Source of the DNA: Escherichia phage phiWec190
Length of the DNA: 64,000 nt
Sequence record: LC739539.1
Strand: one strand, 5' to 3'
The notes beneath the pieces were generated by a model that saw only the letters and a list, made by a program, of their open reading frames with translations, did not search any database and was not told where the DNA came from. This document shows, in pieces, positions 14,181 to 43,263 of this stretch (position 1 is the stretch's first letter; every line of letters begins with the position of its first letter). The translations under genes were made by a program, and so were the position numbers.

Positions 14181-14183
14181 GCA

Positions 14184-15050
14184 TTACACCTTGAAGTTAA
14201 AGCTTGTTGTGGTAGTTTCGAAATCTGGTGCTGTCAAGTGTGCACTGAAATCAGAGATTTGGTTAATAATGAAACTCTTATGTACACCTAAAACAACAAC
14301 ACTTTTAATATCTTCTACAGACATTTCCCACATATTGGAAAAACGGATAAAAGTTTCTCCTTCTTCTGCAACTGTGAAGAACATAAGGTTTCCGCCAGCA
14401 GTGTAACCCACTTCTTTAAAACCTTTGATCGTATATTGCTCACCGCTGGTAAAGAAAACTGTCGCCTTATTTACGGTGCGCTTACGTTCTGGAATACCTT
14501 TGGCACGTTTACCTTTAACCTTTTTAACTTTGGCTACAGGTTCTTCTTTCTTCTTTTTCTGTTCAGCTACGGCATACATTACGCTCATGAAATCTTTAGG
14601 AGATAACAGGAGATAATCCTGCTCTTCTGTCAATTCAGAAACATCATAGTTTACAGCATCCACATAATCGGAAAAACCATGACTTTTCTCTGCTACAAAG
14701 TGAGGGAAATTATCCCCTGCGAAAAGGTTAGATCTCTTTACATCCACATAAGTATCTGCCATAAAAGCAGAGAACCCTTCAAACAAAGGAGATTTTTTAA
14801 GATCGTCAATATTTACCGCAATCTTATACTCGTCTGCCAACGGGCGGAAAGGTTGCTGGAAGCAGCTACGCATCTCTGCATACTGAAGAACTCCGTTAGT
14901 AATACCTTCGAAAACAATTTCATTACATTCTTCTCTTATTTCTTTCACTCGGAAGACGTTCTTGTTAACTTCTAATGCTTCTGGGGAATAACCCGTACCA
15001 GATAAGAAATACAAATCCCCAACTACAGGTAATGGCTGAATATTTTTCAT
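14184..15050 (-). CDS. hypothetical protein (288 aa) with Lys-rich linker
   Basis: ORF track; KKKKEEPVAKVKKVKGKRAKG segment. Confidence 0.5.
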   Translation of the reverse strand: MKNIQPLPVVGDLYFLSGTGYSPEALEVNKNVFRVKEIREECNEIVFEGITNGVLQYAEMRSCFQQPFRPLADEYKIAVNIDDLKKSPLFEGFSAFMADTYVDVKRSNLFAGDNFPHFVAEKSHGFSDYVDAVNYDVSELTEEQDYLLLSPKDFMSVMYAVAEQKKKKEEPVAKVKKVKGKRAKGIPERKRTVNKATVFFTSGEQYTIKGFKEVGYTAGGNLMFFTVAEEGETFIRFSNMWEMSVEDIKSVVVLGVHKSFIINQISDFSAHLTAPDFETTTTSFNFKV

Positions 15051-15059
15051 ATTTTCTCC

Positions 15060-15302
15060 TCATCTTAAGTTATTAAGTAGTGACCACCAATCAAAATCTT
15101 CTCTTGACTTCTGGTGTGGAGTTTCTTCTTTCTGCATATTAACACAGGTGTGTTTGAAATCTCCAGAGAAGCAGTAAATCTGCTCCCCGTCTTTGTATAG
15201 GGATACTTTACTACCATTGATCACGTTTGTCAACACAAAAAGTATGACGAACAAACCTATTGCAAAACAAATATTTTCAAACACAACCCAAACAACTTTC
15301 AT
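15060..15302 (-). CDS. small membrane protein
   Basis: 80 aa; N-terminal hydrophobic helix. Confidence 0.4.
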   Translation of the reverse strand: MKVVWVVFENICFAIGLFVILFVLTNVINGSKVSLYKDGEQIYCFSGDFKHTCVNMQKEETPHQKSREDFDWWSLLNNLR

Positions 15303-15652
15303 TACAGAAATACCTCATCATCTGTCTCATTATCCCAGAAGAATAAATCCCAAGTGTCAGAGTTATCCCATTTAGCGTAAGGAGAGGTCCAGAAGCCATA
15401 CACCTTAATTTCTGTAATAATATCATCGACATTTGCACTTGCTGCTTGTAGTTCGTAACGCAGAACTGGGGTGACTGTACCCTCACCTGAACCACAACAA
15501 GCTTCAACATTAGGTGGAAGATCCATAGGAGGTGTCTGTTTAACTTCTACATAAGCATAAGGAAAAACCTCTTGAATCGCAGCTTCTACCTCTTGGATTG
15601 TGCCAGAAAGACACCAAACATATTCCTGAACATCATCAAAATATACAGACAT
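15302..15652 (-). CDS. hypothetical protein (116 aa)
   Basis: ORF track. Confidence 0.45.
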   Translation of the reverse strand: MSVYFDDVQEYVWCLSGTIQEVEAAIQEVFPYAYVEVKQTPPMDLPPNVEACCGSGEGTVTPVLRYELQAASANVDDIITEIKVYGFWTSPYAKWDNSDTWDLFFWDNETDDEVFL

Positions 15653-15700
15653 AATTCCTCCTATATTAGTAAGAAACCTCCCGAAGGAGGTTCATTGGTA

Positions 15701-16675
15701 TTAAGCGGTAGCTTCTTCTTTTTCAGGGAAGATGAAACTTGCAATCACGCCCAGGGCCAGAGTACCAAGCACGATATACATGCTGATCGTCGGGTCAATA
15801 TGCGCTGGCAGGAAGCTCACTTTTGCGTGCAGCGTTTCTGCAAACGGGTGATACATCAGTTTCACACCAACAAACACCAGGACTGCGATAACTGCTTTCT
15901 CCAGGTGAACCAGATACTTCAGGGCCACACTAAGAACAAAGAACAGAGCACGTAAGCCTAAGATTGCACAGAGCATCGAAGAGAATACAAGCAGTGGTTC
16001 TTGTGTCACTGCAATTACAGCCGGAACCGAGTCTACTGCAAAGATCACATCTACCATTTCCATCACGAACACACAAACCAGAGCCGGAGTTGCTACACGA
16101 ACACCATTCTTAATCGTGAAGAACTTCTCACCATCCATCTGATCCGATACTGGGAACAGTTTACGAACGACGCGGGTAGCCCAATGTTTAGAGTAATCAA
16201 CTGCTGCGTCATCGTCTTGTTTAAACAACATCTTCGCCGCACAAAAAAGAATCACAATACCGAAGAAAATATTAACATACCATCCAATACTTAGCAGATA
16301 AGTCCCTGCTGCTACAAACACACCTCGGAAGACAATCGCACCTGCAATACCCCAGAGTAGAATTTTGTGTTGTAAGTGTGTGCTCTTAATCCCGAAACTG
16401 GAGAACACTGCTACAAACACTACCAAGTTATCTACCGAGAGCGACTTCTCTAACACATACCCGCTCAAGAACAAGTTTGCAAAATCTGCGCCGTGCTGGA
16501 AGTATACAAAACCATAGTAGGCTAAAGACACACCAATCCAGAAGATTGACCAAGCCACAGCAGATTTGAAAGAGATTTCCTTGTTCTCACGATGCCCGAA
16601 AAAGTCAATACCGATGGACAGAACAAGAATACCTACCAACACCACTACATCAATAATGGGGAAACCAAGTTGCAT
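15701..16675 (-). CDS. terC: TerC-family integral membrane protein
   Basis: 324 aa, multi-pass; LSVDNLVVF and AVDSVPAV signature motifs. Confidence 0.85.
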   Translation of the reverse strand: MQLGFPIIDVVVLVGILVLSIGIDFFGHRENKEISFKSAVAWSIFWIGVSLAYYGFVYFQHGADFANLFLSGYVLEKSLSVDNLVVFVAVFSSFGIKSTHLQHKILLWGIAGAIVFRGVFVAAGTYLLSIGWYVNIFFGIVILFCAAKMLFKQDDDAAVDYSKHWATRVVRKLFPVSDQMDGEKFFTIKNGVRVATPALVCVFVMEMVDVIFAVDSVPAVIAVTQEPLLVFSSMLCAILGLRALFFVLSVALKYLVHLEKAVIAVLVFVGVKLMYHPFAETLHAKVSFLPAHIDPTISMYIVLGTLALGVIASFIFPEKEEATA

Positions 16676-16693
16676 TATTTTCTCCTTTCTCTT

Positions 16694-16752
16694 TGCGGGG
16701 AACCACTCCCCGCCTCATGTGATACATCTTACTCTATTCTAAAACTTTGTCA
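16694..16752 (-). promoter_or_regulatory. cassette-type promoter plus leader stem-loop upstream of terC
   Basis: Minus strand reads TTGACA-16nt-TAAGATGTATCACATGAGGCGGGGA-GTGGT-TCCCCGC then RBS and ATG; same architecture as the 35.8-47 kb array. Confidence 0.55.
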
Positions 16753-16756
16753 ACAC

Positions 16757-16978
16757 TTATTTTGAAGAACTTGAGGAAAAGATCCCACGTAGTACAGCCA
16801 TGATAAATGCCACACACACCACAGTCCAGAAGGTGATAGGAACAGTGATATCTGTGTGACCCATCATTTCAACAACGTAGTTATAAGCCAGCAGCAGAAG
16901 CCATGCTGGAATCATACTGATCAGGAAAGCCAGAACAAACACGATAACTACTGCCAGAACACCTGCAACAACACCCAT
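16757..16978 (-). CDS. small membrane protein (73 aa)
   Basis: Almost entirely hydrophobic. Confidence 0.45.
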   Translation of the reverse strand: MGVVAGVLAVVIVFVLAFLISMIPAWLLLLAYNYVVEMMGHTDITVPITFWTVVCVAFIMAVLRGIFSSSSSK

Positions 16979-16991
16979 ATTATTTCTCCTC

Positions 16992-17465
16992 TTAAAGTTT
17001 ATAAATAGTCACATCGTGACCTGTTTTTACTAAAGTTTCTTCAATCATCACTTCGATGATAGCCCAATTACCTCCCGCAAAACCTGCTCCGATCATAGGC
17101 AGACCAATTTTAAGCCCTTTTGCCTGGAGGAGCAAATCATTAGCCATAGCTATCAGTGCGTCATAAAGAGCATCGTAGTCCAACTGACGACCTTTAGCGT
17201 TGTACCCGTAACGATACTGTCCGTACAGGTTATACACCAAAGGATCAGAGGAATTCTCTGGCACCCCTAAACTAAAAGAACCCAGTTTACTTTGATCACC
17301 TGCTGCTGTGTCCAAGTCGGCTGCATATGCATAAGGAAATGCTTTTTTAATCTGTGGAGCAATCCCTTTACCCATATTACACATGCAGTTACAACAGTGG
17401 GCTATAACGTTCACTTCCCCGCTCTTAGCTGCATCGATCAGATTACCAGTAACAACCTTCAACAT
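16992..17465 (-). CDS. Macro-domain protein (ADP-ribose binding/processing)
   Basis: 157 aa; VVTGNLIDAAKSGEVNVIAHCCN, MGKGIAPQIKK, IGLPMIGAGFAGGNW. Confidence 0.7.
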   Translation of the reverse strand: MLKVVTGNLIDAAKSGEVNVIAHCCNCMCNMGKGIAPQIKKAFPYAYAADLDTAAGDQSKLGSFSLGVPENSSDPLVYNLYGQYRYGYNAKGRQLDYDALYDALIAMANDLLLQAKGLKIGLPMIGAGFAGGNWAIIEVMIEETLVKTGHDVTIYKL

Positions 17466-17474
17466 TTTCCCTCC

Positions 17475-18323
17475 TTACAGGATATGTTGGTTAAAGTAAC
17501 GGTTCAGGAAGACGAAGTTTTCAGAATACTTCTCGATCTTGTCATAACCTTCCCCAAGACACCCAAAGAACAGTGCTTCTACATAACGGTGTGGCAGACG
17601 GGAGAGAATGATTTTAAACTCTTCCGGTGCTTGCCCCATCAGATACTTGATAGGACGAACCAAACACTGTGCATCTTGTTCGGTGTTGATCATATTAACG
17701 AAAGCATCTGTCGTGTTAATATAATTGAAGTTCAGTTTAGCTTCTGTGTCTGCTTGATTACCAGTATACTTGGCAAAGTACAGGAAGTAAACATCGTTCG
17801 TAACTTTATTTTCATCCAGGATCTCAATCAGTTTATCTTCATGAGTCCCCGTGATGTTCACATCATCAATGAAGATCAGCTTCTTGTTGCCCCAAAAATC
17901 TTTGTTGCAATAGAATGTGTCCCCATCAATCAGTTTCTTACGGCTTGCTTTGTCCAGGAAACCATAATCGTTAATGTAGCTTACCTTACGGTGAATCGTA
18001 TCCAACTCTACTGCACGACTACCTTTGTGATTCAGCAGCAACAGGTTCAAGAAATTGATGAACTGGTTGGTCATCATGGTTGCTGCGTTATGCACATGGT
18101 TGTAAGGTGAAGGAATCACCACAAACTCTTCTTCCGGCATATTCTTGACTACCAAGTCATAGAAAGAGACTGCCAATGTTTGCCCCATACGGCGTGCCGC
18201 CTGGTTGCTGCCAAACTTCAGTTTGGAATAGTCACGAATATCAAAACGAGCAGTTTCCAGACTATCAAATTTGTGAGCAAAGATTTGAGTTTGATTACGC
18301 ATTAACAAGTTCTCCTTTAGCAA
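17475..18323 (-). CDS. phosphoribosyltransferase (PRTase)-like protein
   Basis: 282 aa; KKLIFIDDVNITGTHEDK PRPP-binding-loop-like. Confidence 0.55.
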   Translation of the reverse strand: MLKENLLMRNQTQIFAHKFDSLETARFDIRDYSKLKFGSNQAARRMGQTLAVSFYDLVVKNMPEEEFVVIPSPYNHVHNAATMMTNQFINFLNLLLLNHKGSRAVELDTIHRKVSYINDYGFLDKASRKKLIDGDTFYCNKDFWGNKKLIFIDDVNITGTHEDKLIEILDENKVTNDVYFLYFAKYTGNQADTEAKLNFNYINTTDAFVNMINTEQDAQCLVRPIKYLMGQAPEEFKIILSRLPHRYVEALFFGCLGEGYDKIEKYSENFVFLNRYFNQHIL

Positions 18324-18951
18324 GTTTATCTAACAAGTCGTTAGGGTTCTTAATATGACAGAAGTTAAATCCTAAGTCAACACATTTTCCATCATATTCT
18401 TCACTATCGCCTACGTGCAATACTTCGTGCCCTAACAAAGGGATGGGAGAATACGTCAGCGTGCGAGCAAAGAATCGCGGATCTGGTTTACAAAGTAAAG
18501 CTTCATCCGAGAAATGGGTGAACTCAAAACAATTCCAACCATCAAACTTACAAGCCCGGCGCAGGATATCCCCTGATATGAAGTTGGTATTACTCTTGAT
18601 GCTCAAATCATAACGCCCCGAAAGATACAGCAAGTGCATCGGTAAATCCACAGCCACATGTGGTGGAAACTTAAGGAACCACTGTTCACACTCGAAACGA
18701 AGCTTTGCAGACTTCAAAGGTGTTATCCCAAGTTCGTAACCAAGTCTTTCCCAGGCATATGCTGCACACTCGGCTGTTCCCTGAAGTGCCGCATTATCCA
18801 GTTCCTTTTTGATCTTCTTGTAAGCTGCTCTTGCTTCTACTTCCGAAATATCTCCGTATTTTGCGATAGTCCAAGCTCGCATATCCGCGTAATTTGGGTT
18901 TGCTGTGATCAGTGTGTTCCATACATCAAAAGAGATATGTTTAATAGTCAT
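18295..18951 (-). CDS. HAD-superfamily hydrolase/phosphatase
   Basis: 218 aa; motif I FDVWNTL, motif III CKPDPRFF, motif IV GDSEEYD. Confidence 0.6.
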   Translation of the reverse strand: MTIKHISFDVWNTLITANPNYADMRAWTIAKYGDISEVEARAAYKKIKKELDNAALQGTAECAAYAWERLGYELGITPLKSAKLRFECEQWFLKFPPHVAVDLPMHLLYLSGRYDLSIKSNTNFISGDILRRACKFDGWNCFEFTHFSDEALLCKPDPRFFARTLTYSPIPLLGHEVLHVGDSEEYDGKCVDLGFNFCHIKNPNDLLDKLAKGELVNA

Positions 18952-28776: not shown

Positions 28777-28923
28777 TTAAACCTCCTCGTAGTAAGGCAG
28801 AGCCTTGATCAATTGTTCTGAAGTCCCATTCTGCACCCATGTAGTCCCGTTGTCAAGCGAAACATAACCTTTCTTATCGACAAACTTACGTAGACAACCA
28901 GTGAACTTGTTTTTGTAGATCAT
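28777..28923 (-). CDS. small hypothetical protein (48 aa, not in track)
   Basis: Hand-read ORF MIYKNKFTGCLRKFVDKKGYVSLDNG... with ATGA overlaps to both neighbours. Confidence 0.35.
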   Translation of the reverse strand: MIYKNKFTGCLRKFVDKKGYVSLDNGTTWVQNGTSEQLIKALPYYEEV

Positions 28924-29336
28924 TTCTTCTTTCCTTTCTTCAGTTTGTTATGACCTTTACCTTTGTAAAGCTTGTGATTACGGGCAGACGGTTTATTTTG
29001 GTTATCGACACGGGACACCGGAGTTTGCCACATTGTATCTCCAGTAGCGAAAGATGCTGCCACAAGAAGTTCCAGGCAATGGTAGTCCAGTTCAGGCATC
29101 TTTGTTTCACGCATTTCGCGTTCTTCCTTATTGTCTTCTTCCTCAATTACAGACCAACCCTCTTCCTGCCAAGCTTCCCCTCTGAACCAAGTTTCCATGT
29201 TATAACCTTGTTCGTCGAGAATAACACCATCTCGCATCTCAAACCATTCGCCACCACAAAAATGGCGGTGCTCCACACGTCTACCTTCCTTCATTGCTTC
29301 TTTAGCTTCGGTCCAAGTCAGTTTGATGTTTTGCAT
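28920..29336 (-). CDS. hypothetical protein (138 aa), first gene of leftward block
   Basis: ORF track; RBS GAGAGGAGAAAACAA then ATG. Confidence 0.5.
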   Translation of the reverse strand: MQNIKLTWTEAKEAMKEGRRVEHRHFCGGEWFEMRDGVILDEQGYNMETWFRGEAWQEEGWSVIEEEDNKEEREMRETKMPELDYHCLELLVAASFATGDTMWQTPVSRVDNQNKPSARNHKLYKGKGHNKLKKGKKK

Positions 29337-29366
29337 TTGTTTTCTCCTCTCATTTGGTATGAGCTA

Positions 29367-29394
29367 ATCATAACAGAACCAAAAAGCTTGTCAA
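29367..29394 (-). promoter_or_regulatory. leftward sigma70-like promoter
   Basis: Minus strand TTGACA (29394-29389), 16 nt, TATGAT (29372-29367). Confidence 0.5.
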
Positions 29395-29397
29395 CAC

Positions 29398-29425
29398 TTG
29401 ACCTGAAATATTTTTAGTGTACAAT
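29398..29425 (+). promoter_or_regulatory. rightward sigma70-like promoter
   Basis: TTGACC 29398-29403, 16 nt, TACAAT 29420-29425; back to back with the leftward promoter. Confidence 0.5.
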
Positions 29426-29453
29426 AGCCCTACATTATTAAGAGAGGTGAACA

Positions 29454-29744
29454 ATGAATATTACATTAGCAACTAAGAACATTTCACAAACTATCAACGG
29501 TTTTGGTGTTATCGTGGCTTTGCACGGGAATAATGAGAAGTGGTTAGCATCTTTCGAAGAAGATGAAAAGCACAATGTTATCCTGAATGCTCCTATCAAG
29601 GTGATGCACATCGTTGGTGAGAGTAAGGTACTTACTTCTTCTCGTTCAGAGGAACAAATTACAAATGAATTAGTAAAACTGCTTGACAACGTTCTTCGGA
29701 TGTTTGATAATGCACCCATCGACACAAAACGTGTCTTAATGTGA
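29454..29744 (+). CDS. hypothetical protein (96 aa)
   Basis: ORF track; GAGAGG RBS. Confidence 0.5.
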   Translation: MNITLATKNISQTINGFGVIVALHGNNEKWLASFEEDEKHNVILNAPIKVMHIVGESKVLTSSRSEEQITNELVKLLDNVLRMFDNAPIDTKRVLM

Positions 29745-29757
29745 GAGGAGAAATACA

Positions 29758-30249
29758 ATGGCTTACCCTGACTACATCGACGAACGTGCTACTGGCTTCT
29801 TCCGTAACTTCTTGGTTGGTCGTTCTCACGGGGATGGTGGTTCCAGTTATAAAACAAGCTGGGATAGTCAATGTGGTGCTAAGGCCACCAAAACTTTGAA
29901 AATGCCAGGTCGTCCATTGTGCGCGTATTGCGGAAATGAAGCCTTATCCCTTCAGCCTGGTATTGAGCATGGGGATTATGATATTAAAGGTTACACTTGT
30001 GTCTGCAAAGGCGCAATGGACGAGGCGGATTGGGTGAAAGAAAAGGCAGAGATGGAGGAACGTCACAGACGAGAAGTTTATGAAATGGAAAAACGTATGC
30101 CTATTCCAGATCTTCAAGTTAAGAAAGATATTGTTGCAAAAATGATGGAAAAAGTTCAGAAAGCAGAGACTGAACAAGAATTAAACCGTGCGATCGAGAA
30201 CTTACGTAATTTTAAAGAAGAAAAAGAGTTGCGCGAGATTATGTGGTAA
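29758..30249 (+). CDS. hypothetical protein with Cys cluster
   Basis: 163 aa; CAYCGNEAL...CVCKGAMD. Confidence 0.5.
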   Translation: MAYPDYIDERATGFFRNFLVGRSHGDGGSSYKTSWDSQCGAKATKTLKMPGRPLCAYCGNEALSLQPGIEHGDYDIKGYTCVCKGAMDEADWVKEKAEMEERHRREVYEMEKRMPIPDLQVKKDIVAKMMEKVQKAETEQELNRAIENLRNFKEEKELREIMW

Positions 30250-30286
30250 GGTATACTACTTCCATCAACTAAGAGAGGAGAACAAA

Positions 30287-30574
30287 ATGTACTATTCACA
30301 AGACGAAGTGGCAAACATCAAATTAGCAGTTGGCGATCTTATTGTATCCCCTAAATATCACTGGGATAACACGGACATGGTTGAAGTAGTAACCCATGTC
30401 GGGGTTGAAGGCGTTGTTCTCTACACTCTGGGCGGAGGTGTTGTTGGGGAAATGGAACGTTATACGACAACGAAGAAACTGGTGAGTTCTTATCGTATGT
30501 TCTTACACAAAGGCTCGGAAGAGTATGCAGCCTTCTTATTGAAATTGGACGCAGAACGAGGAGAAACAAAATGA
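30287..30574 (+). CDS. hypothetical protein (95 aa)
   Basis: Track ORF 30188..30574 trimmed to Met with GAGAGGAG RBS. Confidence 0.45.
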   Translation: MYYSQDEVANIKLAVGDLIVSPKYHWDNTDMVEVVTHVGVEGVVLYTLGGGVVGEMERYTTTKKLVSSYRMFLHKGSEEYAAFLLKLDAERGETK

Positions 30575-30903
30575 AACTTATCCATGATGAATTACAGTTT
30601 GACGTAGAAGATCTGCAAGATTTGGACGATACGTTCTCCGCGATTATCTGTGCTGGACTGTATGCGTTCAAGGCACGTATTGTGGAACGAGGGGATATCC
30701 TTATCCCATCTAAGATTTGGGCTAAATATGTGTCAGATTACCGTAAACTAACAGAAGAGCAGGAGCGGGAAGCTACAGTGGAGTGGTTATCCATTATTGA
30801 TCAAATGATCGAAGGTTTTAAACCTGAATCAGTTATGACCAAAACAGATAAAATGGAAGGTCGTTGCCTGTTTGCTGAATACTTTCATAACTTGTGGAGC
30901 TAA
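30571..30903 (+). CDS. hypothetical protein (110 aa)
   Basis: ORF track. Confidence 0.5.
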   Translation: MKLIHDELQFDVEDLQDLDDTFSAIICAGLYAFKARIVERGDILIPSKIWAKYVSDYRKLTEEQEREATVEWLSIIDQMIEGFKPESVMTKTDKMEGRCLFAEYFHNLWS

Positions 30904-30905
30904 CT

Positions 30906-31082
30906 ATGTCTGAATTTTTTACAGTGGTTTTCTTAGGGATTTATCTGGTTATTAATGCTGTTGGCTTAATCATGTCTCTAATAGAGAATATGGGAATTAA
31001 GTGGGCTTGTACATTCGGTATAGCTCTTATGCTTAGTCCTGTTTGGATTTACATCTGCAAGGCAGTTCAACTAATTAGTTAA
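30906..31082 (+). CDS. small membrane protein
   Basis: Track ORF trimmed to MSEFFTVVFLGIYLVINAVGLIM...; two hydrophobic helices. Confidence 0.4.
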   Translation: MSEFFTVVFLGIYLVINAVGLIMSLIENMGIKWACTFGIALMLSPVWIYICKAVQLIS

Positions 31083-31091
31083 GGAGGGAAT

Positions 31092-31430
31092 ATGTTTAGT
31101 AAAGAAATGAAAGATGTGATTGCTACCCTGGTAGTTGATCACGGTATTGAGGTTGAGCGCCAGGTTTGGAAAGATGAAGCACCTTTCTTTGACTTGGCAT
31201 CACGAGCTAAAAGTCATATGCACCTGTTGGAAGACGGTAATGAGTTTGTTCTCCGTATGCGTTATGATCGAGAATTTCGAATTCCTCTTGACACTGAACC
31301 AGATGGTGTAGTATTGTGGTTGGCAGAACATTTCGCCTACGATGCACTACACGGACGGGGTTTCGGTAGTGAACGTTGGGATGCTGTTTGTCGTAAACAC
31401 CATATTGAACCAGACTACGGGAGTATGTAA
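31092..31430 (+). CDS. hypothetical protein (112 aa)
   Basis: ORF track; GGAGGG RBS. Confidence 0.5.
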   Translation: MFSKEMKDVIATLVVDHGIEVERQVWKDEAPFFDLASRAKSHMHLLEDGNEFVLRMRYDREFRIPLDTEPDGVVLWLAEHFAYDALHGRGFGSERWDAVCRKHHIEPDYGSM

Positions 31431-31681
31431 TGTTAAGCGTTAAGCCTAAGATGATTAGTGAAGACCAGAAAGATTTCATTTATAAGTGTGGACGAATCTG
31501 GAGAGAGTATACCAAGGGTAACGAGGTCGTGGTGGTTACTGAACACCAGATTGAAATCTCTGATCTTTTCGGTGATTATTTGCAAGTGATCAAATTAGGC
31601 ATTGACAGAGGTTTGGTTGAAGTGCTAACCTTATCTCAAGTTGAGGCACACCACTTAGATAAAACTATTGTGGAATTGTAG
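31430..31681 (+). CDS. hypothetical protein (83 aa)
   Basis: ORF track. Confidence 0.45.
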   Translation: MLSVKPKMISEDQKDFIYKCGRIWREYTKGNEVVVVTEHQIEISDLFGDYLQVIKLGIDRGLVEVLTLSQVEAHHLDKTIVEL

Positions 31682-31689
31682 GAGGTAAT

Positions 31690-31851
31690 ATGTTAGATCT
31701 TATTATCAAATCAAGTTTGACAGGTTGTTTGCTAAGTGCGTTGTCTGCACCTATCATAGGCGAATTTCATTCTCAATTAGGAATGTTTATCGCTTTAAGC
31801 GTGGCTACTCTGTTCTTGGTTGTAGCTGCATTGTGTATGTTGTTGGAATAA
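31690..31851 (+). CDS. small membrane protein (53 aa, not in track)
   Basis: Hand-read MLDLIIKSSLTGCLLSALSAPIIGEFHSQLGMFIALSVATLFLVVAALCMLLE after GGAGG RBS. Confidence 0.35.
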   Translation: MLDLIIKSSLTGCLLSALSAPIIGEFHSQLGMFIALSVATLFLVVAALCMLLE

Positions 31852-31863
31852 GAGGAGATCACC

Positions 31864-32223
31864 ATGAAAAAGATTATTTTAGCTGTAGCCCTGCTGTCTG
31901 CAAGTTTCGTAGCATCTGCTGCGCCGTTTGTGGCTGCACAGTCCACAAGCACCGGAGAAGTTGCAGTAACTGCTAAAGGCCACTTTGCTTATACTGATCC
32001 TGATGGCAAGTTCTTTACTTGCACGGATGTAACCCCGTCTGTGGATGTGGATAATTCTAATCGCCCATACGTGGCTATCGGCGCTGTGTGTGGCAACAAC
32101 TTCATCATCATGAAGCAGTATAAGGATGATCAAGGCGGTAGCCTCCTGATCCGTCAAGATGTTCAACAGAAGAAGAAAGCTGTGGTGATGGAAGCTATCA
32201 TCACTAAAGGCGAAGGGATCTAA
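31864..32223 (+). CDS. secreted/periplasmic protein
   Basis: 119 aa; signal peptide MKKIILAVALLSASFVASAAP. Confidence 0.5.
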   Translation: MKKIILAVALLSASFVASAAPFVAAQSTSTGEVAVTAKGHFAYTDPDGKFFTCTDVTPSVDVDNSNRPYVAIGAVCGNNFIIMKQYKDDQGGSLLIRQDVQQKKKAVVMEAIITKGEGI

Positions 32224-32231
32224 AATAAGTA

Positions 32232-32266
32232 TTGACAAGACGTATTAGACAAGAGATAATACGTCT
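32232..32266 (+). promoter_or_regulatory. sigma70-like promoter with overlapping 9-bp inverted repeat (operator-like)
   Basis: TTGACA 32232-32237, 17 nt, GATAAT 32255-32260; GACGTATTA...TAATACGTC flanks the -10. Confidence 0.5.
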
Positions 32267-32291
32267 ATTCCAACAGAAGAGGAGAGATTAA

Positions 32292-33431
32292 ATGAAATAC
32301 ACAGTGTACGGGGATGTTGCTATTGTTAATAAAGACTTCGGTGTAGAGGTTGATAAACTCCCCGCTGGCGTTTGGACTGTCAATTGTGATCCACATGGTA
32401 ACTACTCTCTTAGTCGTGCTGATAAGTTCACGATTCCTGATCGCCTGTACGGGGAAACCAAAGAACGTGCAGCCCACGTTATCCGTACCTTCGCTCGTCG
32501 TAGTAAAGAAGGTAAGAACACAGGTGTCCTGTTGTCGGGTACAAAAGGCAGTGGCAAGACAATGCTGGCAAAACTGATCAGTAACACTCTGTTGGAAGCG
32601 GAAGACCTGGGAATCCCAACTATTCTGGTAACGCAGCCATATTCTGATGCCAACTTCCTGGAGTTCATGAGTAAGATCTCTGAACGCGCAGTAGTACTGT
32701 TCGATGAGTTCGACAAAGTGTATTCCAAGAAGGAAGATCAGGAAGCACTGCTGACTCTGCTGGATGGCACAGGTAGCGGTAACAAACTGTTCATGCTGAC
32801 AAAGAACAGTGGATACATCTCGGAATACTTCGTCAACCGTCCGAGCCGTATCTTCTATAGCTTCAACTACGACAAGCTGTCTATTGAAACTATGCTGGAC
32901 TACTTGGACAAGAATCTGAAGAATCGCAAACATGTTGAAAGCTTCCAACGTTTGTGGGATGTTAGCACTGAACTGTCTTTCGATGTTATTCAAGGGATCG
33001 TAGAAGAGTTAAACTTCTATCCGAAAATGACGTTCAAGACCTGTCTGGAGATGATGGGTATCTCTCTGGGTAACGATGCACGCTGGACGATTAGCTCTAT
33101 TGTTGTCAACGGTAAAGCTATCAAGCCTAACTGGGTCAACAACTGGCATGAGTTCACTCCTACCAAGTTCTTGTCTGGTGCATGTGAACTGAACATCTAC
33201 CTGGAAGCAGTGAAGGACGAAGAACTGGAGCCTCTCGAAGATAGCAGCTACGTCATCCTGGATGATGATGGTGATCCACGCATCGACCTGAAAGCTACCG
33301 CCGAAGGTTTGAAGTGTGACCTGATTGAAGGTGGTAAGATTGTAGTAGTGAGCGATAAACCTGGAGATACGTTCCGCGTGGTTCTGGAACCAACCACTAC
33401 ACGATCTGCAACACTGAGCAGTGTGTTCTGA
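32292..33431 (+). CDS. AAA-type ATPase
   Basis: 379 aa; Walker A LLSGTKGSGKTMLAK, Walker B AVVLFDEFDKV. Confidence 0.6.
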   Translation: MKYTVYGDVAIVNKDFGVEVDKLPAGVWTVNCDPHGNYSLSRADKFTIPDRLYGETKERAAHVIRTFARRSKEGKNTGVLLSGTKGSGKTMLAKLISNTLLEAEDLGIPTILVTQPYSDANFLEFMSKISERAVVLFDEFDKVYSKKEDQEALLTLLDGTGSGNKLFMLTKNSGYISEYFVNRPSRIFYSFNYDKLSIETMLDYLDKNLKNRKHVESFQRLWDVSTELSFDVIQGIVEELNFYPKMTFKTCLEMMGISLGNDARWTISSIVVNGKAIKPNWVNNWHEFTPTKFLSGACELNIYLEAVKDEELEPLEDSSYVILDDDGDPRIDLKATAEGLKCDLIEGGKIVVVSDKPGDTFRVVLEPTTTRSATLSSVF

Positions 33432-33476
33432 TAAAGATGCCCCGCAAGGGGCATTTCTCATATACGGAGGAAAATT

Positions 33477-33842
33477 ATGTTAGTTGATGTTCAAATCATG
33501 CGTAACGAAAAAATGGATTTCTTTGAAGCAGTAGAGAAACATCTGATTCGATGGGACTATGAATTTATTCCTGCTGGGTGTGGACCAGTAGAGCACTTAA
33601 CGGAAGACGATGACGTATACATGATCATCCGTCAAGTGTACCAGACAGACCAATGTGAAGAAACTCCAGAACTGATTTTGTTTGAGTGTAAAGATCTTGC
33701 AAAATATTTTGACTATGGCGGAAAAGAGGGTCATAATCTCTCCAGATACAATAAACGTCTACTTATCTTAGACTACATGCGGAACAACAAACACAAACTC
33801 ATCGACGCAGACGCAGTTTATGGCTACTGGTGGATGGACTAA
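33477..33842 (+). CDS. hypothetical protein (121 aa)
   Basis: ORF track. Confidence 0.5.
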   Translation: MLVDVQIMRNEKMDFFEAVEKHLIRWDYEFIPAGCGPVEHLTEDDDVYMIIRQVYQTDQCEETPELILFECKDLAKYFDYGGKEGHNLSRYNKRLLILDYMRNNKHKLIDADAVYGYWWMD

Positions 33843-33855
33843 CAAAGGAGAAACT

Positions 33856-34044
33856 ATGGCACGTTTAGCAGATCATGAAATCTTTAAACCTATTCTGAAC
33901 CACTATAATGAACTTAAGGCAGTGTTGGATTGTTATAAAGAGGATGAAGAACGCTTGGAAGTCAATCTTAAGATAGTTCTGATGAAAGCTTTTCAAGACG
34001 GGCAAGCTGAAGTCTTAAGAGGTATGAAAAATGCGAATAACTGA
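33856..34044 (+). CDS. hypothetical protein (62 aa)
   Basis: Track ORF trimmed to MARLADHEIF... with AAGGAG RBS. Confidence 0.4.
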   Translation: MARLADHEIFKPILNHYNELKAVLDCYKEDEERLEVNLKIVLMKAFQDGQAEVLRGMKNANN

Positions 34045-34558
34045 TGAATATGTATTCTTCTTTTCACATAAAGATGTGTTTAGCAATTGGTACATTGCGC
34101 CATTTACAGAGACGGAACCAGGGTACAGTGACACTTTCTGTTGTGTAGAGCAATACATGATGTGGCGTAAGGCTTTGCTGTTCAAGGATCAGGTAATCGC
34201 AGCAGCTATCCTTTATCACTCAATGAAGCGTGACGACGAGAAGGGACAGGCGTACTACAAACGTATGGGTCGAGCGGTGTCTGGTTTTAATAATGACGTG
34301 TGGGAAGAGCACCGAGAGCGTATCGTAATGCGAGGCTTATGCTTGAAGTATACACAGAACCCTGATCTTTACTCTGACTTGCGCCTGTATCAATTCAAAA
34401 CATTCGTTGAGGCCAGCCCTTACGATAAGGTTTACGGAATTGGAATGGGTATGTATGAACCAGGGGTGCTTAATCCTGCCAACTGGAAAGGGCAGAATCT
34501 TTTAGGACAATACCACAACAATCTGATTAAAATCCTGTTCCCAGCCAAAATACCATAA
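34031..34558 (+). CDS. NADAR-like (DUF1768/YbiA-type) protein
   Basis: 175 aa; FFFSHKDVFSNWYIAPFTETEPGYSDTFCCVEQYMMWRKALLFKD fits the NADAR N-terminal signature. Confidence 0.55.
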   Translation: MRITDEYVFFFSHKDVFSNWYIAPFTETEPGYSDTFCCVEQYMMWRKALLFKDQVIAAAILYHSMKRDDEKGQAYYKRMGRAVSGFNNDVWEEHRERIVMRGLCLKYTQNPDLYSDLRLYQFKTFVEASPYDKVYGIGMGMYEPGVLNPANWKGQNLLGQYHNNLIKILFPAKIP

Positions 34559-34627
34559 AGGCGATATTCGTGATATTTTGAAAAAATTCGTTTTTAAAAA
34601 GAATACGTCAACTTTGTGCCACAGAAA

Positions 34628-34665
34628 AAGGCTCCTACAACCTCCGTAGAGAGCCTTTTTCTCTT
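34628..34665 (+). terminator. rho-independent terminator
   Basis: AGGCTCCTAC-AACCTCC-GTAGAGAGCCT followed by TTTTTCTCTTT. Confidence 0.65.
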
Positions 34666-35010
34666 TAGCTACACCAACACTCATCTTTTAGAGTTAACCT
34701 CGTTAGACGAGCATTCAGGTAGGTTGTAGGCTGCGTAGCATCTTCAGGAAAGATTATCTCAAATCTTACAAGCAAACTATCTCAAAAATCCCTACAATTA
34801 TTTAAACTTTTTATGAGTTTACAAAAACGAGAATCCAAAACCAAATTCTAAAGTTTACACACATTATCTCAAATGGGTGGACCAGATTGCAAAACAAAAA
34901 ACCGAGAAAAATTTTTAAAAAAGTCGCGCGCACCAGGTATTTAAAGTTTTTTTGCTTTTACAAAAGTGAAAGTTGAAAAGCAAATTCTAAAGTTTGCGTG
35001 AAAATTACCG

Positions 35011-35210
35011 AAATGAGAATTATTCTCACTTAAAATCGAAATACGAATGAGAATGATAATGATTCTCATTTAACATGGTAAATACGAATGATTCGCATTC
35101 AATAGCGTAAATGAGATTTATTCTCACCTTGCGAATGAGATTGATTCTCATTCAACTATCCAAATAAGATTGATTTTTATTCAATAAGGTAAATGATAAT
35201 CATTCTCATT
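35011..35210. repeat. array of about 7 imperfect palindromes resembling Fur-box hexamer repeats
   Basis: AATGAGAAT-n-ATTCTCATT type units about every 30 bp, e.g. GAATGAGAATGATAATGATTCTCATT and AATGATAATCATTCTCATT. Confidence 0.55.
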
Positions 35211-35471
35211 TAGAGAATGACGGGCAGGTCCGGTGATTATCTCGCGCTCCCGTGTCCCCTCGCCATGTAATAAGAATAACAGATCCAGCCAGGAAAGCAA
35301 GCGATTATTTTATCTTTACATTTCTTTACAAATATATAGCGCCCAGCCTCCCGGCGATCGACCTTCCAACCGGTGCCCCTGGTATGTTAGCCCCGCCTTT
35401 ACGCCGTGGGGGGTGGCGCTTCCTCTTCTGTATGTAAAACAGTATAAGCCCGATCCCTGGGCTTGTCAAGA

Positions 35472-35738
35472 CTATTTTTTGTCTTCTTGCCAGGCAAGAA
35501 CGCCTAACCAAAAATACATATCACCCCGCGCCCCTGGCGGTATCTTGTTTTCACCGCCGCCACTGCAAGCCCATAAATAACCATCAGCGAACGGATCAAA
35601 ATGGTCTATATCTTCCACTTTATGATCGCCCAAGGTGAGAACGGTTTCAACCTTTAAGCCCGTTGCGCTTGCTACCTGGTGGACCGTGCCGCCTTGCCAG
35701 CCTAAAGAGTGCATAAGGTGTAATGTAGTAGTTGTCAT
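35472..35738 (-). CDS. hypothetical protein in GC-rich island (uncertain)
   Basis: 88 aa track ORF, opposite orientation to neighbours, in a locally GC-rich 0.5 kb segment. Confidence 0.3.
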   Translation of the reverse strand: MTTTTLHLMHSLGWQGGTVHQVASATGLKVETVLTLGDHKVEDIDHFDPFADGYLWACSGGGENKIPPGARGDMYFWLGVLAWQEDKK

Positions 35739-35847
35739 GGTGTCGCCCTTTCTTTGTTGTGCGCCCTGGTTGGCGCGGTAGAAAGATAATAGCCCTTTCC
35801 TTTATATATAGCAAGCAAAAAAGAAATGAAAAAGATTGAAAAAGTGG

Positions 35848-35904
35848 TTGACGTTCGCCAGGTGGCGGCGTACTATTCATCACGTAGGGCGGCAATGGTG
35901 CTGC
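35848..35904 (+). promoter_or_regulatory. cassette promoter plus leader stem-loop (copy 1)
   Basis: TTGACG 35848-53, 17 nt, TACTAT 35871-76, leader CACGTAGGGCGGCAATGGTGCTGC (stem 35889-35904). Confidence 0.6.
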
Positions 35905-35925
35905 TCACTATCTGGAGTTAAGATC

Positions 35926-36123
35926 ATGGCAACATTGCACATAGTAGCGAAAGCAGGACAAATCAACGTAGTGGTAAACGGCTTTACTGAATTTAGTCAT
36001 CCTCAAGATGATCATGAAACGGTGCTATCTTTCATTGATTCCCTGTTAGAAATGGGAGTCATTACAGAAGACCAACACGCTACTAAATCCGAACGTGTCC
36101 GCCGTATCGCGGGTGAAGAATAA
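35926..36123 (+). CDS. small hypothetical protein (65 aa)
   Basis: Track ORF trimmed to first Met after leader; RBS GGAG. Confidence 0.5.
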   Translation: MATLHIVAKAGQINVVVNGFTEFSHPQDDHETVLSFIDSLLEMGVITEDQHATKSERVRRIAGEE

Positions 36124-36129
36124 AAAGTA

Positions 36130-36190
36130 TTGACAATACGCAACAACCTGATAAGATGTATCACGTAGAGCGGCGGAATGGTCCACCGCT
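36130..36190 (+). promoter_or_regulatory. cassette promoter plus leader stem-loop (copy 2)
   Basis: TTGACA 36130-35, 16 nt, TAAGAT, leader GTAGAGCGGCGGAATGGTCCACCGCTC. Confidence 0.6.
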
Positions 36191-36213
36191 CACAACTAAG
36201 AGAGATTATCATC

Positions 36214-42428: not shown

Positions 42429-42707
42429 ATGACCATCGTTAAATTAACAACCGAAGAAATGAAAACAATGTTAACCACTAATTTACAAAATTGGAAAATT
42501 GGTGTTGACGTTGAAACAGTGTGCAAGTTGAACGACAAACTAACACCGGACGACATTGAAACGATCATCCGTGCAGATTTCTATGATGCTTTATACGATG
42601 ATTCCACAGTCCTTGAAACGATGTTGGATAACGCTTGGATCAATCCCGATTTGGCGGCTTATGGTCATCTTGCCTTTGAAGCCATCCATAATGTTTATAA
42701 TCGTTAA
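42429..42707 (+). CDS. hypothetical protein (92 aa)
   Basis: ORF track. Confidence 0.5.
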   Translation: MTIVKLTTEEMKTMLTTNLQNWKIGVDVETVCKLNDKLTPDDIETIIRADFYDALYDDSTVLETMLDNAWINPDLAAYGHLAFEAIHNVYNR

Positions 42708-42717
42708 GGGGGATAAC

Positions 42718-42849
42718 ATGAATCCGAAAGATATGCAAGCATGGAAAGGGTACGACGATCTAAGCGCCTTGCGCAATAAGTCAAGCCGTAACCTTAGACG
42801 GTTGGAAGCAAAGAAAAAGAAAAATATTAAGGGGGTGCACCATGTATAA
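42718..42849 (+). CDS. small basic protein (43 aa)
   Basis: In-frame tail of track ORF 42556..42849 from MNPKDMQAWKGY..., RBS AAGGGGG. Confidence 0.35.
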   Translation: MNPKDMQAWKGYDDLSALRNKSSRNLRRLEAKKKKNIKGVHHV

Positions 42850-43069
42850 CAATATCATTGCAGATCGTGCCGCTACTATTCGCCCAGGAGATCGGGCGCG
42901 TTTACAGGTTGGCGTTTATCCGTTCCCGTCTTATGACTTCTGCAAGGTAACGGCTATCGAAAACAATCCGTTTGATCCTGACACCGTGATCATCTGGTAC
43001 GAAGGAAGGGGAAACAGATATGAAGATATCTTGGGGCGTGATGAATCCGTAAACATTTTACGCTATTAA
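42842..43069 (+). CDS. small hypothetical protein (75 aa)
   Basis: ORF track. Confidence 0.45.
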   Translation: MYNNIIADRAATIRPGDRARLQVGVYPFPSYDFCKVTAIENNPFDPDTVIIWYEGRGNRYEDILGRDESVNILRY

Positions 43070-43202
43070 CAGCCTGTAAGCTGTACGGCTGTATTACAGC
43101 CTAAAAGGTGTAAGGCAATGCAATCCCCTACCTGATTTAATTAGTGCGCCCTGGCTTATACTGGGGCGTTATACATTGTAGAAAATAATTTTAAAAATAT
43201 GC

Positions 43203-43263
43203 TTGACGCCTGGAACGTTGGCGCGTATAGTTTATCACATAGGGCGGCGGAATGGTCCACCGC
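43203..43263 (+). promoter_or_regulatory. cassette promoter plus leader stem-loop (copy 16)
   Basis: TTGACG 43203-08, 17 nt, TATAGT, leader CACATAGGGCGGCGGAATGGTCCACCGC. Confidence 0.6.

What the first reader, a model, noticed from the sequence alone, without database searches (positions are those of the whole stretch)
34031..34558. NADAR-like protein, with a Macro-domain protein elsewhere in the window: probable reversal of ADP-ribosylation as counter-defence
34031..34558 carries the NADAR/DUF1768-like N-terminal signature (FFFSHKDVFSNWYIAPF...EQYMMWRKALLFKD) and 16992..17465 is a Macro domain. Both families hydrolyse ADP-ribose adducts; NADAR enzymes have been reported to remove ADP-ribose from guanine bases installed by DarT-type toxins, and macrodomains reverse protein or nucleic-acid ADP-ribosylation. 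A phage carrying both plausibly neutralises ADP-ribosyltransferase-based host immunity.
Basis: partly seen in the sequence, partly recalled or inferred. Interest (0 to 1): 0.65.

Follow-up and report, generated by a model that had tools for sequence, protein, structure and literature searches.

The report
Phage NADAR and macrodomain anti-defence genes

Summary
Both ORFs exist as described. 34031..34558 (+) is a full-length NADAR protein (Pfam 118 bits, cut-off 35) with every ADP-ribose-binding and catalytic residue of the solved Phytophthora NADAR conserved. 16992..17465 (-) is a stand-alone macrodomain of the DarG/TARG1/SCO6735 class. The window is phage phiWec188, a Phapecoctavirus. The NADAR is the syntenic orthologue (57% identity) of AdfN^Bas60. 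That protein neutralises the DarT1 toxin and rescues phages from DarTG1 (Nat Commun 2025). The macrodomain is homologous to two tested phage proteins. One is T4 Tk.4/AdfM (36% identity), needed against DarTG2. The other is Adpp (about 44%), an ADP-ribose-1''-phosphate phosphatase that feeds the NARP1 NAD+ pathway against aRES. phiWec188 has no NARP1 anywhere in its genome, so the Adpp route cannot work here. An AdfM-like role is therefore more likely, but sequence cannot settle the substrate. The two genes lie 17 kb apart on opposite strands and are independent, not one system. Verdict: observation confirmed, interpretation supported, new members of known counter-defence families, modest interest.

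The parts
34031..34558 (+). NADAR-family gene (175 aa), orthologue of AdfN^Bas60. Predicted ADP-ribosyl-guanine DNA glycohydrolase with E40, K47 and E127 as the catalytic or ribose-positioning residues.
   Evidence: Pfam PF08719 118 bits. 57% identity, E=4e-68 to bas60_0111. PDB 8BAU E=2e-14, or 1.6e-17 with the orthologue profile. E40, K47, R81, W91, R95, E127 and D132 are invariant in four orthologues.
34017..34022 (+). Shine-Dalgarno-like AAGAGG 8 nt upstream of the NADAR start codon. The start overlaps the end of the upstream small ORF (33820..34044) by 14 nt.
   Evidence: Read directly from the sequence.
34623..34662 (+). Intrinsic terminator hairpin followed by a U-run, about 65 nt after the NADAR stop codon. 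NADAR is the last gene of its plus-strand unit.
   Evidence: RNA fold dG -22.8 kcal/mol, z = -5.46, 0 of 200 shuffles as stable.
16992..17465 (-). Stand-alone macrodomain gene (157 aa) of the phage Tk.4/Adpp family (phrog_335), with an SCO6735-type active site (H23, N26, Q83, G126, G128).
   Evidence: Pfam Macro 24.8 bits against GA 22 and phrog_335 1e-55. PDB hits. PADLOC DarG 4e-12. 36% identity to T4 Tk.4, 44% to Athena gp176, 49% to bas60_0070. Invariant columns in alignment A1.

Best explanation
The window is phage phiWec188 (Phapecoctavirus). It encodes two unlinked, single-domain enzymes that remove ADP-ribose-based marks made by host immunity.

(1) NADAR, 34031..34558. This is an AdfN-type DNA ADP-ribosylglycohydrolase. 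When a DarT1-type toxin ADP-ribosylates guanine N2 on replicating phage ssDNA, the enzyme binds the ADP-ribose in the conserved pocket (K47, R81, W91, R95, D132). It cleaves the ribose-C1''-to-guanine N-glycosidic bond using E40, K47 and E127, which restores replicable DNA. It has Glu, not Asp or His, at the third acidic position. It is also closest to the generic 'NADAR' family, so it may additionally remove cytidine-linked and RNA-linked ADP-ribose.

(2) Macrodomain, 16992..17465. This is a DarG-like macrodomain of the phage Tk.4/Adpp family that cleaves a substituent at C1'' of ADP-ribose. The phage has no NARP1 to use free ADP-ribose, so the most likely substrate is thymidine-linked ADP-ribose on DNA made by DarT2, as inferred for T4 AdfM. 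That would give the phage cover against both DarTG types.

Shown here: family membership, active-site conservation, orthology and synteny, absence of NARP1. Shown by others on homologues: anti-DarTG1, anti-DarTG2 and ADPR-1''-phosphate phosphatase activities. Inferred: that these particular proteins have those activities.
For: NADAR:
- Strong profile matches.
- All PnNADAR ligand and catalytic residues (E43, K50, R79, W89, R93, E125, D130) are conserved as E40, K47, R81, W91, R95, E127 and D132, and are invariant in four orthologues.
- 57% full-length identity and the same position (ATPase ... NADAR, then terminator and palindrome array) as bas60_0111 of phage Bas60.
- AdfN^Bas60 neutralises DarT1 and rescues three phages on DarTG1.
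- All NADAR families tested hydrolyse G-ADPr in vitro.

Macro:
- DarG, SCO6735 and TARG1 are its nearest solved relatives, and PADLOC gives DarG at 4e-12.
- The SCO6735 residues needed for thymidine-ADPr DNA hydrolysis (N27, Q85, G128, plus H24 and K34) are present as N26, Q83, G128, H23 and K33.
- It is a homologue of T4 Tk.4/AdfM, whose knockout sensitises T4 to DarTG2.
- Adps and Namat are absent from the whole phiWec188 genome, and from the syntenic site in ESCO5. This removes the only known use of an Adpp activity.
Against: - No experiment exists on the phiWec188 proteins themselves.
- NADAR: 57% identity does not guarantee identical specificity or in vivo efficacy. NADARs with conserved in vitro activity differ in whether they protect cells, as with YbiA and T4 gp30.3. 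The protein also passes NCBIfam's riboflavin-intermediate N-glycosidase domain model.
- Macro: it is more similar to the ADPR-1''-phosphate phosphatase Adpp (about 44%) than to AdfM (36%). It shares Adpp's long loop after Q83, whereas T4 and Vequintavirus have a short loop.
- The AdfM evidence is a preprint with genetics only and no biochemistry.
- Similarity rankings to solved macrodomains do not track the reported functions, so the substrate cannot be read from sequence.
Confidence: 0.72

Rival explanations
1. The macrodomain is an Adpp-type ADP-ribose-1''-phosphate phosphatase acting on a soluble metabolite. That metabolite could be the product of RES-domain (aRES) NADases or of RNA-repair chemistry. 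On this reading it is not a DNA de-ADP-ribosylase.
For: It is about 44% identical (E=7e-30) to Athena gp176, which is 98% identical to the biochemically validated Adpp of Vibrio phage Gary. A 44%-identical homologue also sits beside Adps and Namat in a Pakpunavirus. PHROG calls the family 'phosphatase'. Poa1p is a weak PDB hit.
Against: In the published system all three genes (Adps, Adpp, Namat) are required, and phiWec188 has neither Adps nor Namat. Most of the roughly 3000 phage records with this family are not in NARP1 operons. The only stand-alone member tested, T4 Tk.4, acts against DarTG2.
Confidence: 0.2
2. The NADAR is a YbiA-like housekeeping N-glycosidase that destroys reactive riboflavin-pathway intermediates, as the 'GTP cyclohydrolase II / N-glycosidase YbiA' labels in related records imply. 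On this reading it has no role in immunity.
For: It passes NCBIfam TIGR02464 'riboflavin biosynthesis intermediates N-glycosidase' (109.7 bits, cut-off 73.7). Relatives are annotated as GTP cyclohydrolase II or YbiA-like.
Against: The orthologue profile matches PnNADAR at 1.6e-17 but E. coli YbiA only at 0.026. The orthologue AdfN^Bas60 has a demonstrated anti-DarTG1 phenotype. No riboflavin-synthesis gene is annotated in the related genomes inspected. The 'GTP cyclohydrolase II' label is a transfer from RibA-NADAR fusion proteins.
Confidence: 0.04
3. Both enzymes mainly degrade soluble ADP-ribose-derived immune signals or toxins, such as the cyclic ADPR isomers of Thoeris-type systems, rather than macromolecular adducts. 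This was proposed on contextual grounds for phage Macro and NADAR domains.
For: Iyer, Burroughs, Anantharaman and Aravind 2022 argue this for phage Macro and NADAR domains, and note that the two co-occur in DNA viruses more than chance predicts. The Adpp result shows that a member of this macro family does act on a soluble ADPR derivative.
Against: Every phage NADAR tested so far acts on G-ADPr DNA and counters DarTG1. No NADAR or member of this macro family has been shown to cleave cADPR signals.
Confidence: 0.08
4. The macrodomain works with its tightly packed neighbours (HAD hydrolase, ComF-like PRTase_3, small membrane protein, TerC, and TelA 3.4 kb away) in a Ter-like pathway that makes or processes a nucleoside-like metabolite.
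For: HAD, PRTase_3 and Macro are separated by -29 and +9 nt on one strand. The order is conserved in Bas60. TelA and TerC/Alx are confirmed. Ter systems are predicted to include PRTase and HAD enzymes.
Against: HAD-PRTase_3 is a conserved two-gene cassette in Rhizobium and Caulobacter phages, and even in a Klebsiella Stephanstirmvirinae phage, with no Macro or TerC within 4.5 kb. Macro homologues in T4, Vequintavirus, Mydovirus, Moazamivirus, Pakpunavirus and Thalassavirus have no PRTase_3 or HAD neighbours. Tight packing is the norm in phage genomes.
Confidence: 0.06

Closest known systems
AdfN^Bas60 (bas60_0111, QXV83846.1, phage PaulScherrer/Bas60; Johannesman, Carlson & LeRoux, Nat Commun 2025)
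   Same: Single-domain NADAR of the same length, 57% identical end to end. Same genomic position in a sister genus of Stephanstirmvirinae, with identical catalytic residues. It neutralises DarT1 and rescues phages from DarTG1.
   Different: 43% of residues differ, and Bas60 has a 6-residue insertion near residue 35. The phiWec188 protein itself is untested. That bas60_0111 is the protein tested rests on its being the only NADAR found in Bas60 (56-150 kb searched) and on the BASEL annotation.
AdfN^T4 (gp30.3), the T4-type phage NADAR family
   Same: Orphan phage NADAR that removes ADP-ribose from guanine in DNA and counters DarTG1.
   Different: A different NADAR family. T4-type proteins have His at the position that is Glu127 here. 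tblastn with our protein gave no listed T4-like hit. AdfN^T4 works only in the context of T-even infection and does not remove C-ADPr, whereas Glu-type NADARs do.
DarG1 (the NADAR antitoxin of DarTG1) and Phytophthora NADAR (PDB 8BAU)
   Same: Same fold and same ADPr-binding residues. 8BAU is the best solved match (E=2e-14).
   Different: There is no adjacent DarT, no DarG1-type N-terminal DNA-binding extension, and Glu instead of the DarG1 Asp. DarG1 structures are not detected even at E<=10 with the orthologue profile.
AdfM (T4 Tk.4; HIDEN-SEQ preprint 2025)
   Same: Stand-alone phage macrodomain of about 155 aa in the same PHROG, 36% identical, with the same invariant H/N/Q/GxG core. It is needed for T4 growth on DarTG2.
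   Different: T4 and Vequintavirus proteins have a 7-residue shorter loop after the conserved Gln, and Ser instead of Lys33. Its biochemistry has not been reported.
Adpp (KNV71_gp137, Vibrio phage Gary; NARP1-AP, Osterman et al. preprint 2026)
   Same: Same macro family and the closest characterised relative (about 44% identity through the 98%-identical Athena gp176), with the same long loop.
   Different: Adpp is encoded inside an Adps-Adpp-Namat operon and is useful only with NARP1. phiWec188 lacks NARP1 entirely, and its macro gene lies beside HAD/PRTase_3 and TerC.
SCO6735 (PDB 5E3B) and the DarG2 macrodomain / TARG1 (ALC1-like class)
   Same: Best solved match (2e-13). It has Gln at the position of the TARG1/DarG catalytic Lys, as SCO6735 does, and SCO6735 cleaves thymidine-linked ADPr on DNA.
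   Different: No DarT-binding C-terminal domain (NCBIfam DarG 38.8 bits against a cut-off of 250). No TARG1 Lys/Asp dyad. SCO6735 Lys89 is not conserved.

Membership tests
NADAR superfamily (Pfam PF08719) | Profile match above the curated threshold over most of the domain | tested here: met
   118.4 bits against GA 35.1, profile positions 3-154 of 163. TIGR02464 109.7 bits against 73.7.
NADAR superfamily | Conserved catalytic Glu and Lys (PnNADAR E43/K50; E. coli C7 NADAR E88/K95; AdfN^T4 E36/K43) and the pyrophosphate-binding Arg/Trp residues | tested here: met
   E40, K47 (same 7-residue spacing), R81, W91, R95 and D132 align to E43, K50, R79, W89, R93 and D130. W133 is Tyr135 here.
'NADAR'/YbiA-type as against DarG1-type or T4-phage-type NADAR | Third acidic residue: Glu (NADAR/YbiA), Asp (DarG1), His (T4-type phage NADAR) | tested here: met
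   Glu127 in FVEASPYD aligns to PnNADAR E125. It is therefore Glu-type, and neither DarG1-type nor T4-type.
DarG1 antitoxin | Encoded next to DarT1, with an N-terminal basic extension forming the DNA groove | tested here: not met
   No ART gene is adjacent. The protein starts directly at the YbiA-like core. PADLOC gives PDC-M42C, not DarG. No DarG1 structure is detected at E<=10.
AdfN^Bas60 orthologous group | Full-length similarity plus conserved gene position | tested here: met
   57% identity, E=4e-68 over 172 aa. Same order of ATPase ... NADAR, then an ORF-poor region with the same palindrome motif.
AdfN (functional definition) | Hydrolysis of guanine-linked ADP-ribose on DNA and rescue from DarTG1 | not testable with these tools
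   Needs biochemistry and plaque assays. It has been shown only for homologues.
Macro domain (Pfam PF01661) | Profile match above the curated threshold | tested here: met
   24.8 bits against GA 22, which is marginal. It is corroborated by five independent solved macrodomains at E from 2e-13 to 5e-4.
ALC1-like class, SCO6735 subtype | Asn27, Gln85 (in place of the catalytic Lys) and Gly126/Gly128 in the phosphate-binding loop | tested here: met
   N26, Q83, G126 and G128 are invariant in 8 phage homologues. H23 and K33 are also present. SCO6735 K89 is not conserved.
TARG1 / DarG2 catalytic type | Catalytic Lys (TARG1 K84, DarG K80), with Asp125 in TARG1 | tested here: not met
   That position is Gln83, and the GxGxD Asp position is Ala (alignment; residue roles).
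DarG2 antitoxin | Macrodomain plus a C-terminal DarT2-binding domain, encoded next to DarT2 | tested here: not met
   The protein is only 157 aa. It matches only positions 1-144 of the 329-position PADLOC DarG model. NCBIfam antitoxin_DarG gives 38.8 bits against a cut-off of 250. No DarT is adjacent.
AdfM (T4 Tk.4) family | Homology to Tk.4 as a stand-alone phage macrodomain | tested here: met
   36% identity, E=8e-23. The T4 locus is confirmed as Tk.4. The anti-DarTG2 function itself is not testable here.
Adpp / NARP1-AP | Macro gene within or next to an Adps-Namat operon, with NARP1 present in the genome | tested here: not met
   The neighbours are PRTase_3, HAD and TerC. tblastn with three Adps and three Namat queries over the whole genome gave a best E of 0.008 over 57 aa.

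The most novel reading that the evidence does not exclude
AdfM (anti-DarTG2) and Adpp (ADPR-1''-phosphate phosphatase) are one enzyme family whose members are bifunctional. They would cleave whatever sits on C1'' of ADP-ribose, whether thymine on DNA or phosphate. Phapecoctaviruses, which kept the macrodomain but have no NARP1, would then be the natural test case. The Glu-type NADAR may likewise have a broader range than T4's (guanine and cytidine, DNA and RNA), so the two genes together could blunt several ADP-ribosyltransferase defences beyond DarTG.
Probability: 0.25. Interest if true: 0.5.

Novelty: new member of a known kind. Interest (0 to 1): 0.25.

Why it matters
It gives a functional name to two 'hypothetical proteins' that are conserved across about 130 phapecoctavirus and justusliebigvirus genomes used in phage-therapy work. 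It corrects a widespread misannotation ('GTP cyclohydrolase II', 'phosphatase'). It predicts that these phages resist DarTG1 and probably DarTG2 hosts. The one open point of wider interest is that the same macrodomain family has been given two different counter-defence functions in two recent preprints. A phage such as phiWec188, which has the macrodomain but no NARP1, is a clean system in which to ask whether the family is bifunctional.

Tried and rejected
1. Macro as part of a described NAD+ reconstitution pathway. NARP3 is PnuC plus NadR and is unrelated. NARP1 is absent from the genome.

2. Macro as an obligate partner of the adjacent PRTase_3 and HAD genes. Rejected, because the HAD-PRTase_3 cassette occurs without Macro in Rhizobium, Caulobacter and Klebsiella phages. 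Macro homologues elsewhere also lack these neighbours.

3. Using similarity to solved structures, PADLOC or NCBIfam to tell Adpp-like from AdfM-like. This was uninformative. All three proteins hit DarG equally, and the rankings do not follow the reported functions.

4. An RNA gene in the ORF-poor stretch after the NADAR gene. Rfam found nothing at E<=0.1, and there are no tRNAs in the window.

5. PADLOC candidate PDC-M42C as a lead for the NADAR. There is no literature on it.

6. Supplementary data of the AdfN paper, to confirm the Bas60 accession. None is held.

7. Structure prediction was not run. The alignments contain non-window sequences that the tool refuses, and the fold assignment was already unambiguous from sequence.

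Full report
**Observation**

Both ORFs are present exactly as described.
- 34031..34558 (+) encodes 175 aa beginning MRITDEYVFFFSHKDVFSNWY. It has an AAGAGG ribosome-binding site 8 nt upstream.
- 16992..17465 encodes 157 aa on the minus strand.

The first ORF matches Pfam NADAR at 118.4 bits (cut-off 35.1; E=4.7e-34) over nearly the whole domain. It also matches NCBIfam TIGR02464 at 109.7 bits (cut-off 73.7).

The second ORF passes Pfam Macro only narrowly (24.8 against 22 bits). Other evidence makes it a secure macrodomain:
- phmmer finds five different solved macrodomains: SCO6735 2e-13, BT1257 2e-10, T. aquaticus DarG 3e-7, TARG1 3e-6 and Poa1p 5e-4.
- PADLOC's DarG model matches at 4e-12.
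- phrog_335 matches at 1e-55.

**Provenance**

The window is the reverse complement of the circularised genome of Escherichia phage phiWec188 (LC739537.1; Stephanstirmvirinae, Phapecoctavirus). Identity is 99.95-100%. It differs by one extra cassette of about 800 bp at 42434..43232. Both genes are annotated 'hypothetical protein' in that record. Related records call the NADAR 'GTP cyclohydrolase II' or 'YbiA-like N-glycosidase', and the macrodomain 'phosphatase'.

**The NADAR**

The best solved match is the Phytophthora nicotianae NADAR, 8BAU (E=2e-14). The published ADP-ribose contacts and catalytic residues of that structure are E43, K50, R79, W89, R93, E125 and D130. They align to E40, K47, R81, W91, R95, E127 and D132 here. 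W133 is a Tyr. All of these are invariant in four orthologues down to 57% identity.

A profile of the orthologues finds 8BAU at 1.6e-17, E. coli YbiA only at 0.026, and no DarG1 structure at all. The protein therefore belongs to the generic 'NADAR' family. It has Glu at the third acidic position, where DarG1 has Asp and T4-type phage NADARs have His. In the 2026 study of cytidine ADP-ribosylation, the tested members of the two Glu-type families (NADAR and YbiA), except the E. coli NADAR, also removed cytidine-linked ADP-ribose from DNA and RNA, whereas DarG1 and T4 gp30.3 did not.

**Published function of the orthologue**

Johannesman, Carlson and LeRoux identified a NADAR in BASEL phages Bas60-62 that is distinct from T4 AdfN. 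They showed that it neutralises DarT1 toxicity in uninfected cells. It also restores plaquing of RB69, T5 and Bas25 on DarTG1 hosts, but has no effect on DarTG2.

Bas60 is phage PaulScherrer (MZ501100.1). Its only NADAR that I could find is bas60_0111, annotated 'putative YbiA-like N-glycosidase'. It is 57% identical to the window protein over the full length (E=4e-68). It also occupies the same position: at the end of a plus-strand block, after an AAA ATPase, and followed by an ORF-poor region carrying the same palindromic motif.

In the window the gene is followed by a strong intrinsic terminator at 34623..34662 (dG -22.8, z=-5.5). Homologues occur in 718 phage records, mostly large myoviruses. 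This agrees with the survey of Iyer et al. 2022.

**The macrodomain**

An alignment with seven phage homologues shows an invariant core: H23, N26, Q83, G126 and G128. This is the SCO6735 arrangement, with Gln in place of the catalytic Lys of TARG1 and DarG, and no Asp125 equivalent. SCO6735 cleaves thymidine-linked ADP-ribose from DNA, and Q85A, N27S and G128E mutations impair it.

Two members of this phage family have been characterised.
- T4 Tk.4 is 36% identical (E=8e-23). It is AdfM, the single hit in a transposon screen of T4 on DarTG2 hosts, confirmed by a clean knockout.
- Vibrio phage Gary gp137 is Adpp, a purified ADP-ribose-1''-phosphate phosphatase encoded between Adps and Namat. 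It lets NARP1 rebuild NAD+ after aRES cleavage, and all three genes are required. Athena gp176 is 98% identical to it and 44% identical to the window protein. A 44%-identical homologue also lies beside NARP1 in a Pakpunavirus.

The window protein is thus closer to Adpp than to AdfM. It also shares Adpp's longer loop after Q83.

Sequence does not discriminate between the two functions. All three proteins hit DarG models about equally. Their rankings against solved macrodomains do not follow the reported activities either: T4 AdfM is closer to Poa1p than the Adpp-like protein is.

**Which function applies here**

The informative test is whether the phage can use free ADP-ribose. I covered the entire phiWec188 genome with the window plus three further pieces of the record. 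I searched it with Adps and Namat from three lineages. The best hit was E=0.008 over 57 residues, so NARP1 is absent.

At the site where the sister genus (Bas60) carries NARP1, phiWec188 and ESCO5 have only small ORFs. The identity distribution of Namat hits shows no phapecoctavirus-like class. Adpp is of no use against aRES without Adps and Namat. The retained macrodomain of phapecoctaviruses therefore more probably acts as AdfM does. This is an inference and has not been demonstrated.

**Neighbours**

The macro gene is packed between a ComF-like PRTase_3 (PF15610, 5e-41) with an overlapping HAD hydrolase on one side, and a small membrane ORF and a TerC/Alx protein on the other. TelA lies 3.4 kb away. 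This recalls the predicted Ter 'nucleoside-like metabolite' module.

However, HAD-PRTase_3 is a self-contained two-gene cassette in Rhizobium, Caulobacter and Klebsiella phages, with no macrodomain or TerC nearby. Macro homologues in six other phage lineages have unrelated neighbours. I therefore treat the adjacency as lineage-specific packing.

**Are the two genes a system?**

No. They are 17 kb apart on opposite strands. The macro gene lies in the minus-strand replication and nucleotide-metabolism block. The NADAR lies in the plus-strand block of small genes that starts at the divergent junction near 29.2 kb. Each family occurs in many phages without the other (718 and 2983 records).

**Verdict**

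For the NADAR the support comes from experiments on a syntenic orthologue. For the macrodomain it comes from experiments on more distant homologues, and the substrate remains uncertain.

The idea is already in the literature:
- AdfN^T4, AdfN^Bas32 and AdfN^Bas60 (2025).
- AdfM (preprint, 2025).
- Adpp (preprint, 2026).
- A 2021 genome paper that lists NADAR and Macro ORFs in a phapecoctavirus.

These are new members of known kinds. The residual interest is the possible bifunctionality of the Tk.4/Adpp macrodomain family, for which a NARP1-less phage is a good test case.

Noticed in passing
window 35011-35209 (also about 48130, 48913 and 49098): There is an array of six palindromic 7-1-7 repeats, TGA(G/T)A(A/T)TnATTCTCA, in the ORF-poor stretch after the NADAR terminator. 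The window has 15 matches against 0.15 expected. The motif is close to the E. coli Fur box (TGATAATnATTATCA); the classic 19-mer matches 4 times at <=3 mismatches against 0.04 expected. The motif recurs at the same place in ESCO5, Bas60 and PsgM04F. It could be an iron-responsive or Fur-titrating element, or an operator array for a phage regulator.
   Followed up: partly
window 34799-34856 and 34938-34995: A 58-nt direct repeat (81% identical) lies between the NADAR terminator and the palindrome array, each copy with promoter-like TTTACA elements. Sigma-70-like sites are enriched across 28800-36200, with 28 found against 15.4 +/- 3.8 expected.
   Followed up: no
window 17475-18951 (-); loci L015, L016, L017: HAD hydrolase plus ComF-like PRTase_3, with overlapping stop and start codons, is a conserved two-gene cassette of unknown function. 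It is shared by Stephanstirmvirinae, Rhizobium (Kleczkowskaviridae), Caulobacter and Brevundimonas phages, 156 records in all. In Rhizobium phage Y65 a Nudix gene follows it.
   Followed up: partly
window 12481-16978 (-): A loose Ter-like gene set lies on one strand: TelA (PF05816, 1e-34), an SprT-like protein, three unknown ORFs, TerC/Alx (TIGR03718, 320 bits) and a 73-aa membrane ORF. TerC is 94% identical to that of Bas60, while the flanking genes are only 50-65% identical. That suggests recent exchange or strong constraint.
   Followed up: partly
L005:3892-4623 (Bas60 bas60_0070): The Bas60 macrodomain protein has an extra N-terminal region of about 90 residues that the window protein lacks. 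That region has no Pfam match.
   Followed up: partly
window 33431-33477: ESCO5, PsgM04F and Bas60 carry a 1-1.4 kb gene (an endonuclease gene in ESCO5 and PsgM04F, 'hypothetical' in Bas60) between the AAA ATPase and the small ORFs that precede the NADAR. The window has only a 45-nt gap there. This looks like presence/absence variation of a homing endonuclease.
   Followed up: no
window 42434-43232, with flanking repeats at about 36159, 38122, 39521, 40122, 41126, 42380 and 43233: The window has an extra cassette of about 800 bp relative to LC739537.1. The cassette is 82% identical to a segment of PsgM04F. It is bounded by an intergenic repeat of about 57 nt that recurs throughout the early-gene block. 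This suggests cassette gain and loss by recombination between the repeats. The 148-bp terminal repeat of the record is collapsed in the window.
   Followed up: partly
public records OR584014.1, MG065656.1 and others, OP562383.1: Records labelled 'Pseudomonas phage PsgM04F', several 'Campylobacter phage' records and 'Acinetobacter phage ABPW7' match this E. coli phage group closely: PsgM04F at 94-95% DNA identity over the two tested stretches of the window, the Campylobacter records at about 99% Namat protein identity to Bas60 (57-65% to the window's NADAR and PRTase_3), and ABPW7 at 78% PRTase_3 protein identity to the window. The host labels look doubtful.
   Followed up: no
window 34031-34558 against PADLOC: The NADAR and its Bas60 orthologue match the PADLOC candidate defence protein PDC-M42C (5e-35) rather than a DarG model. 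No literature on PDC-M42 was found. It may mark another bacterial NADAR-containing system that these phage proteins mimic.
   Followed up: partly
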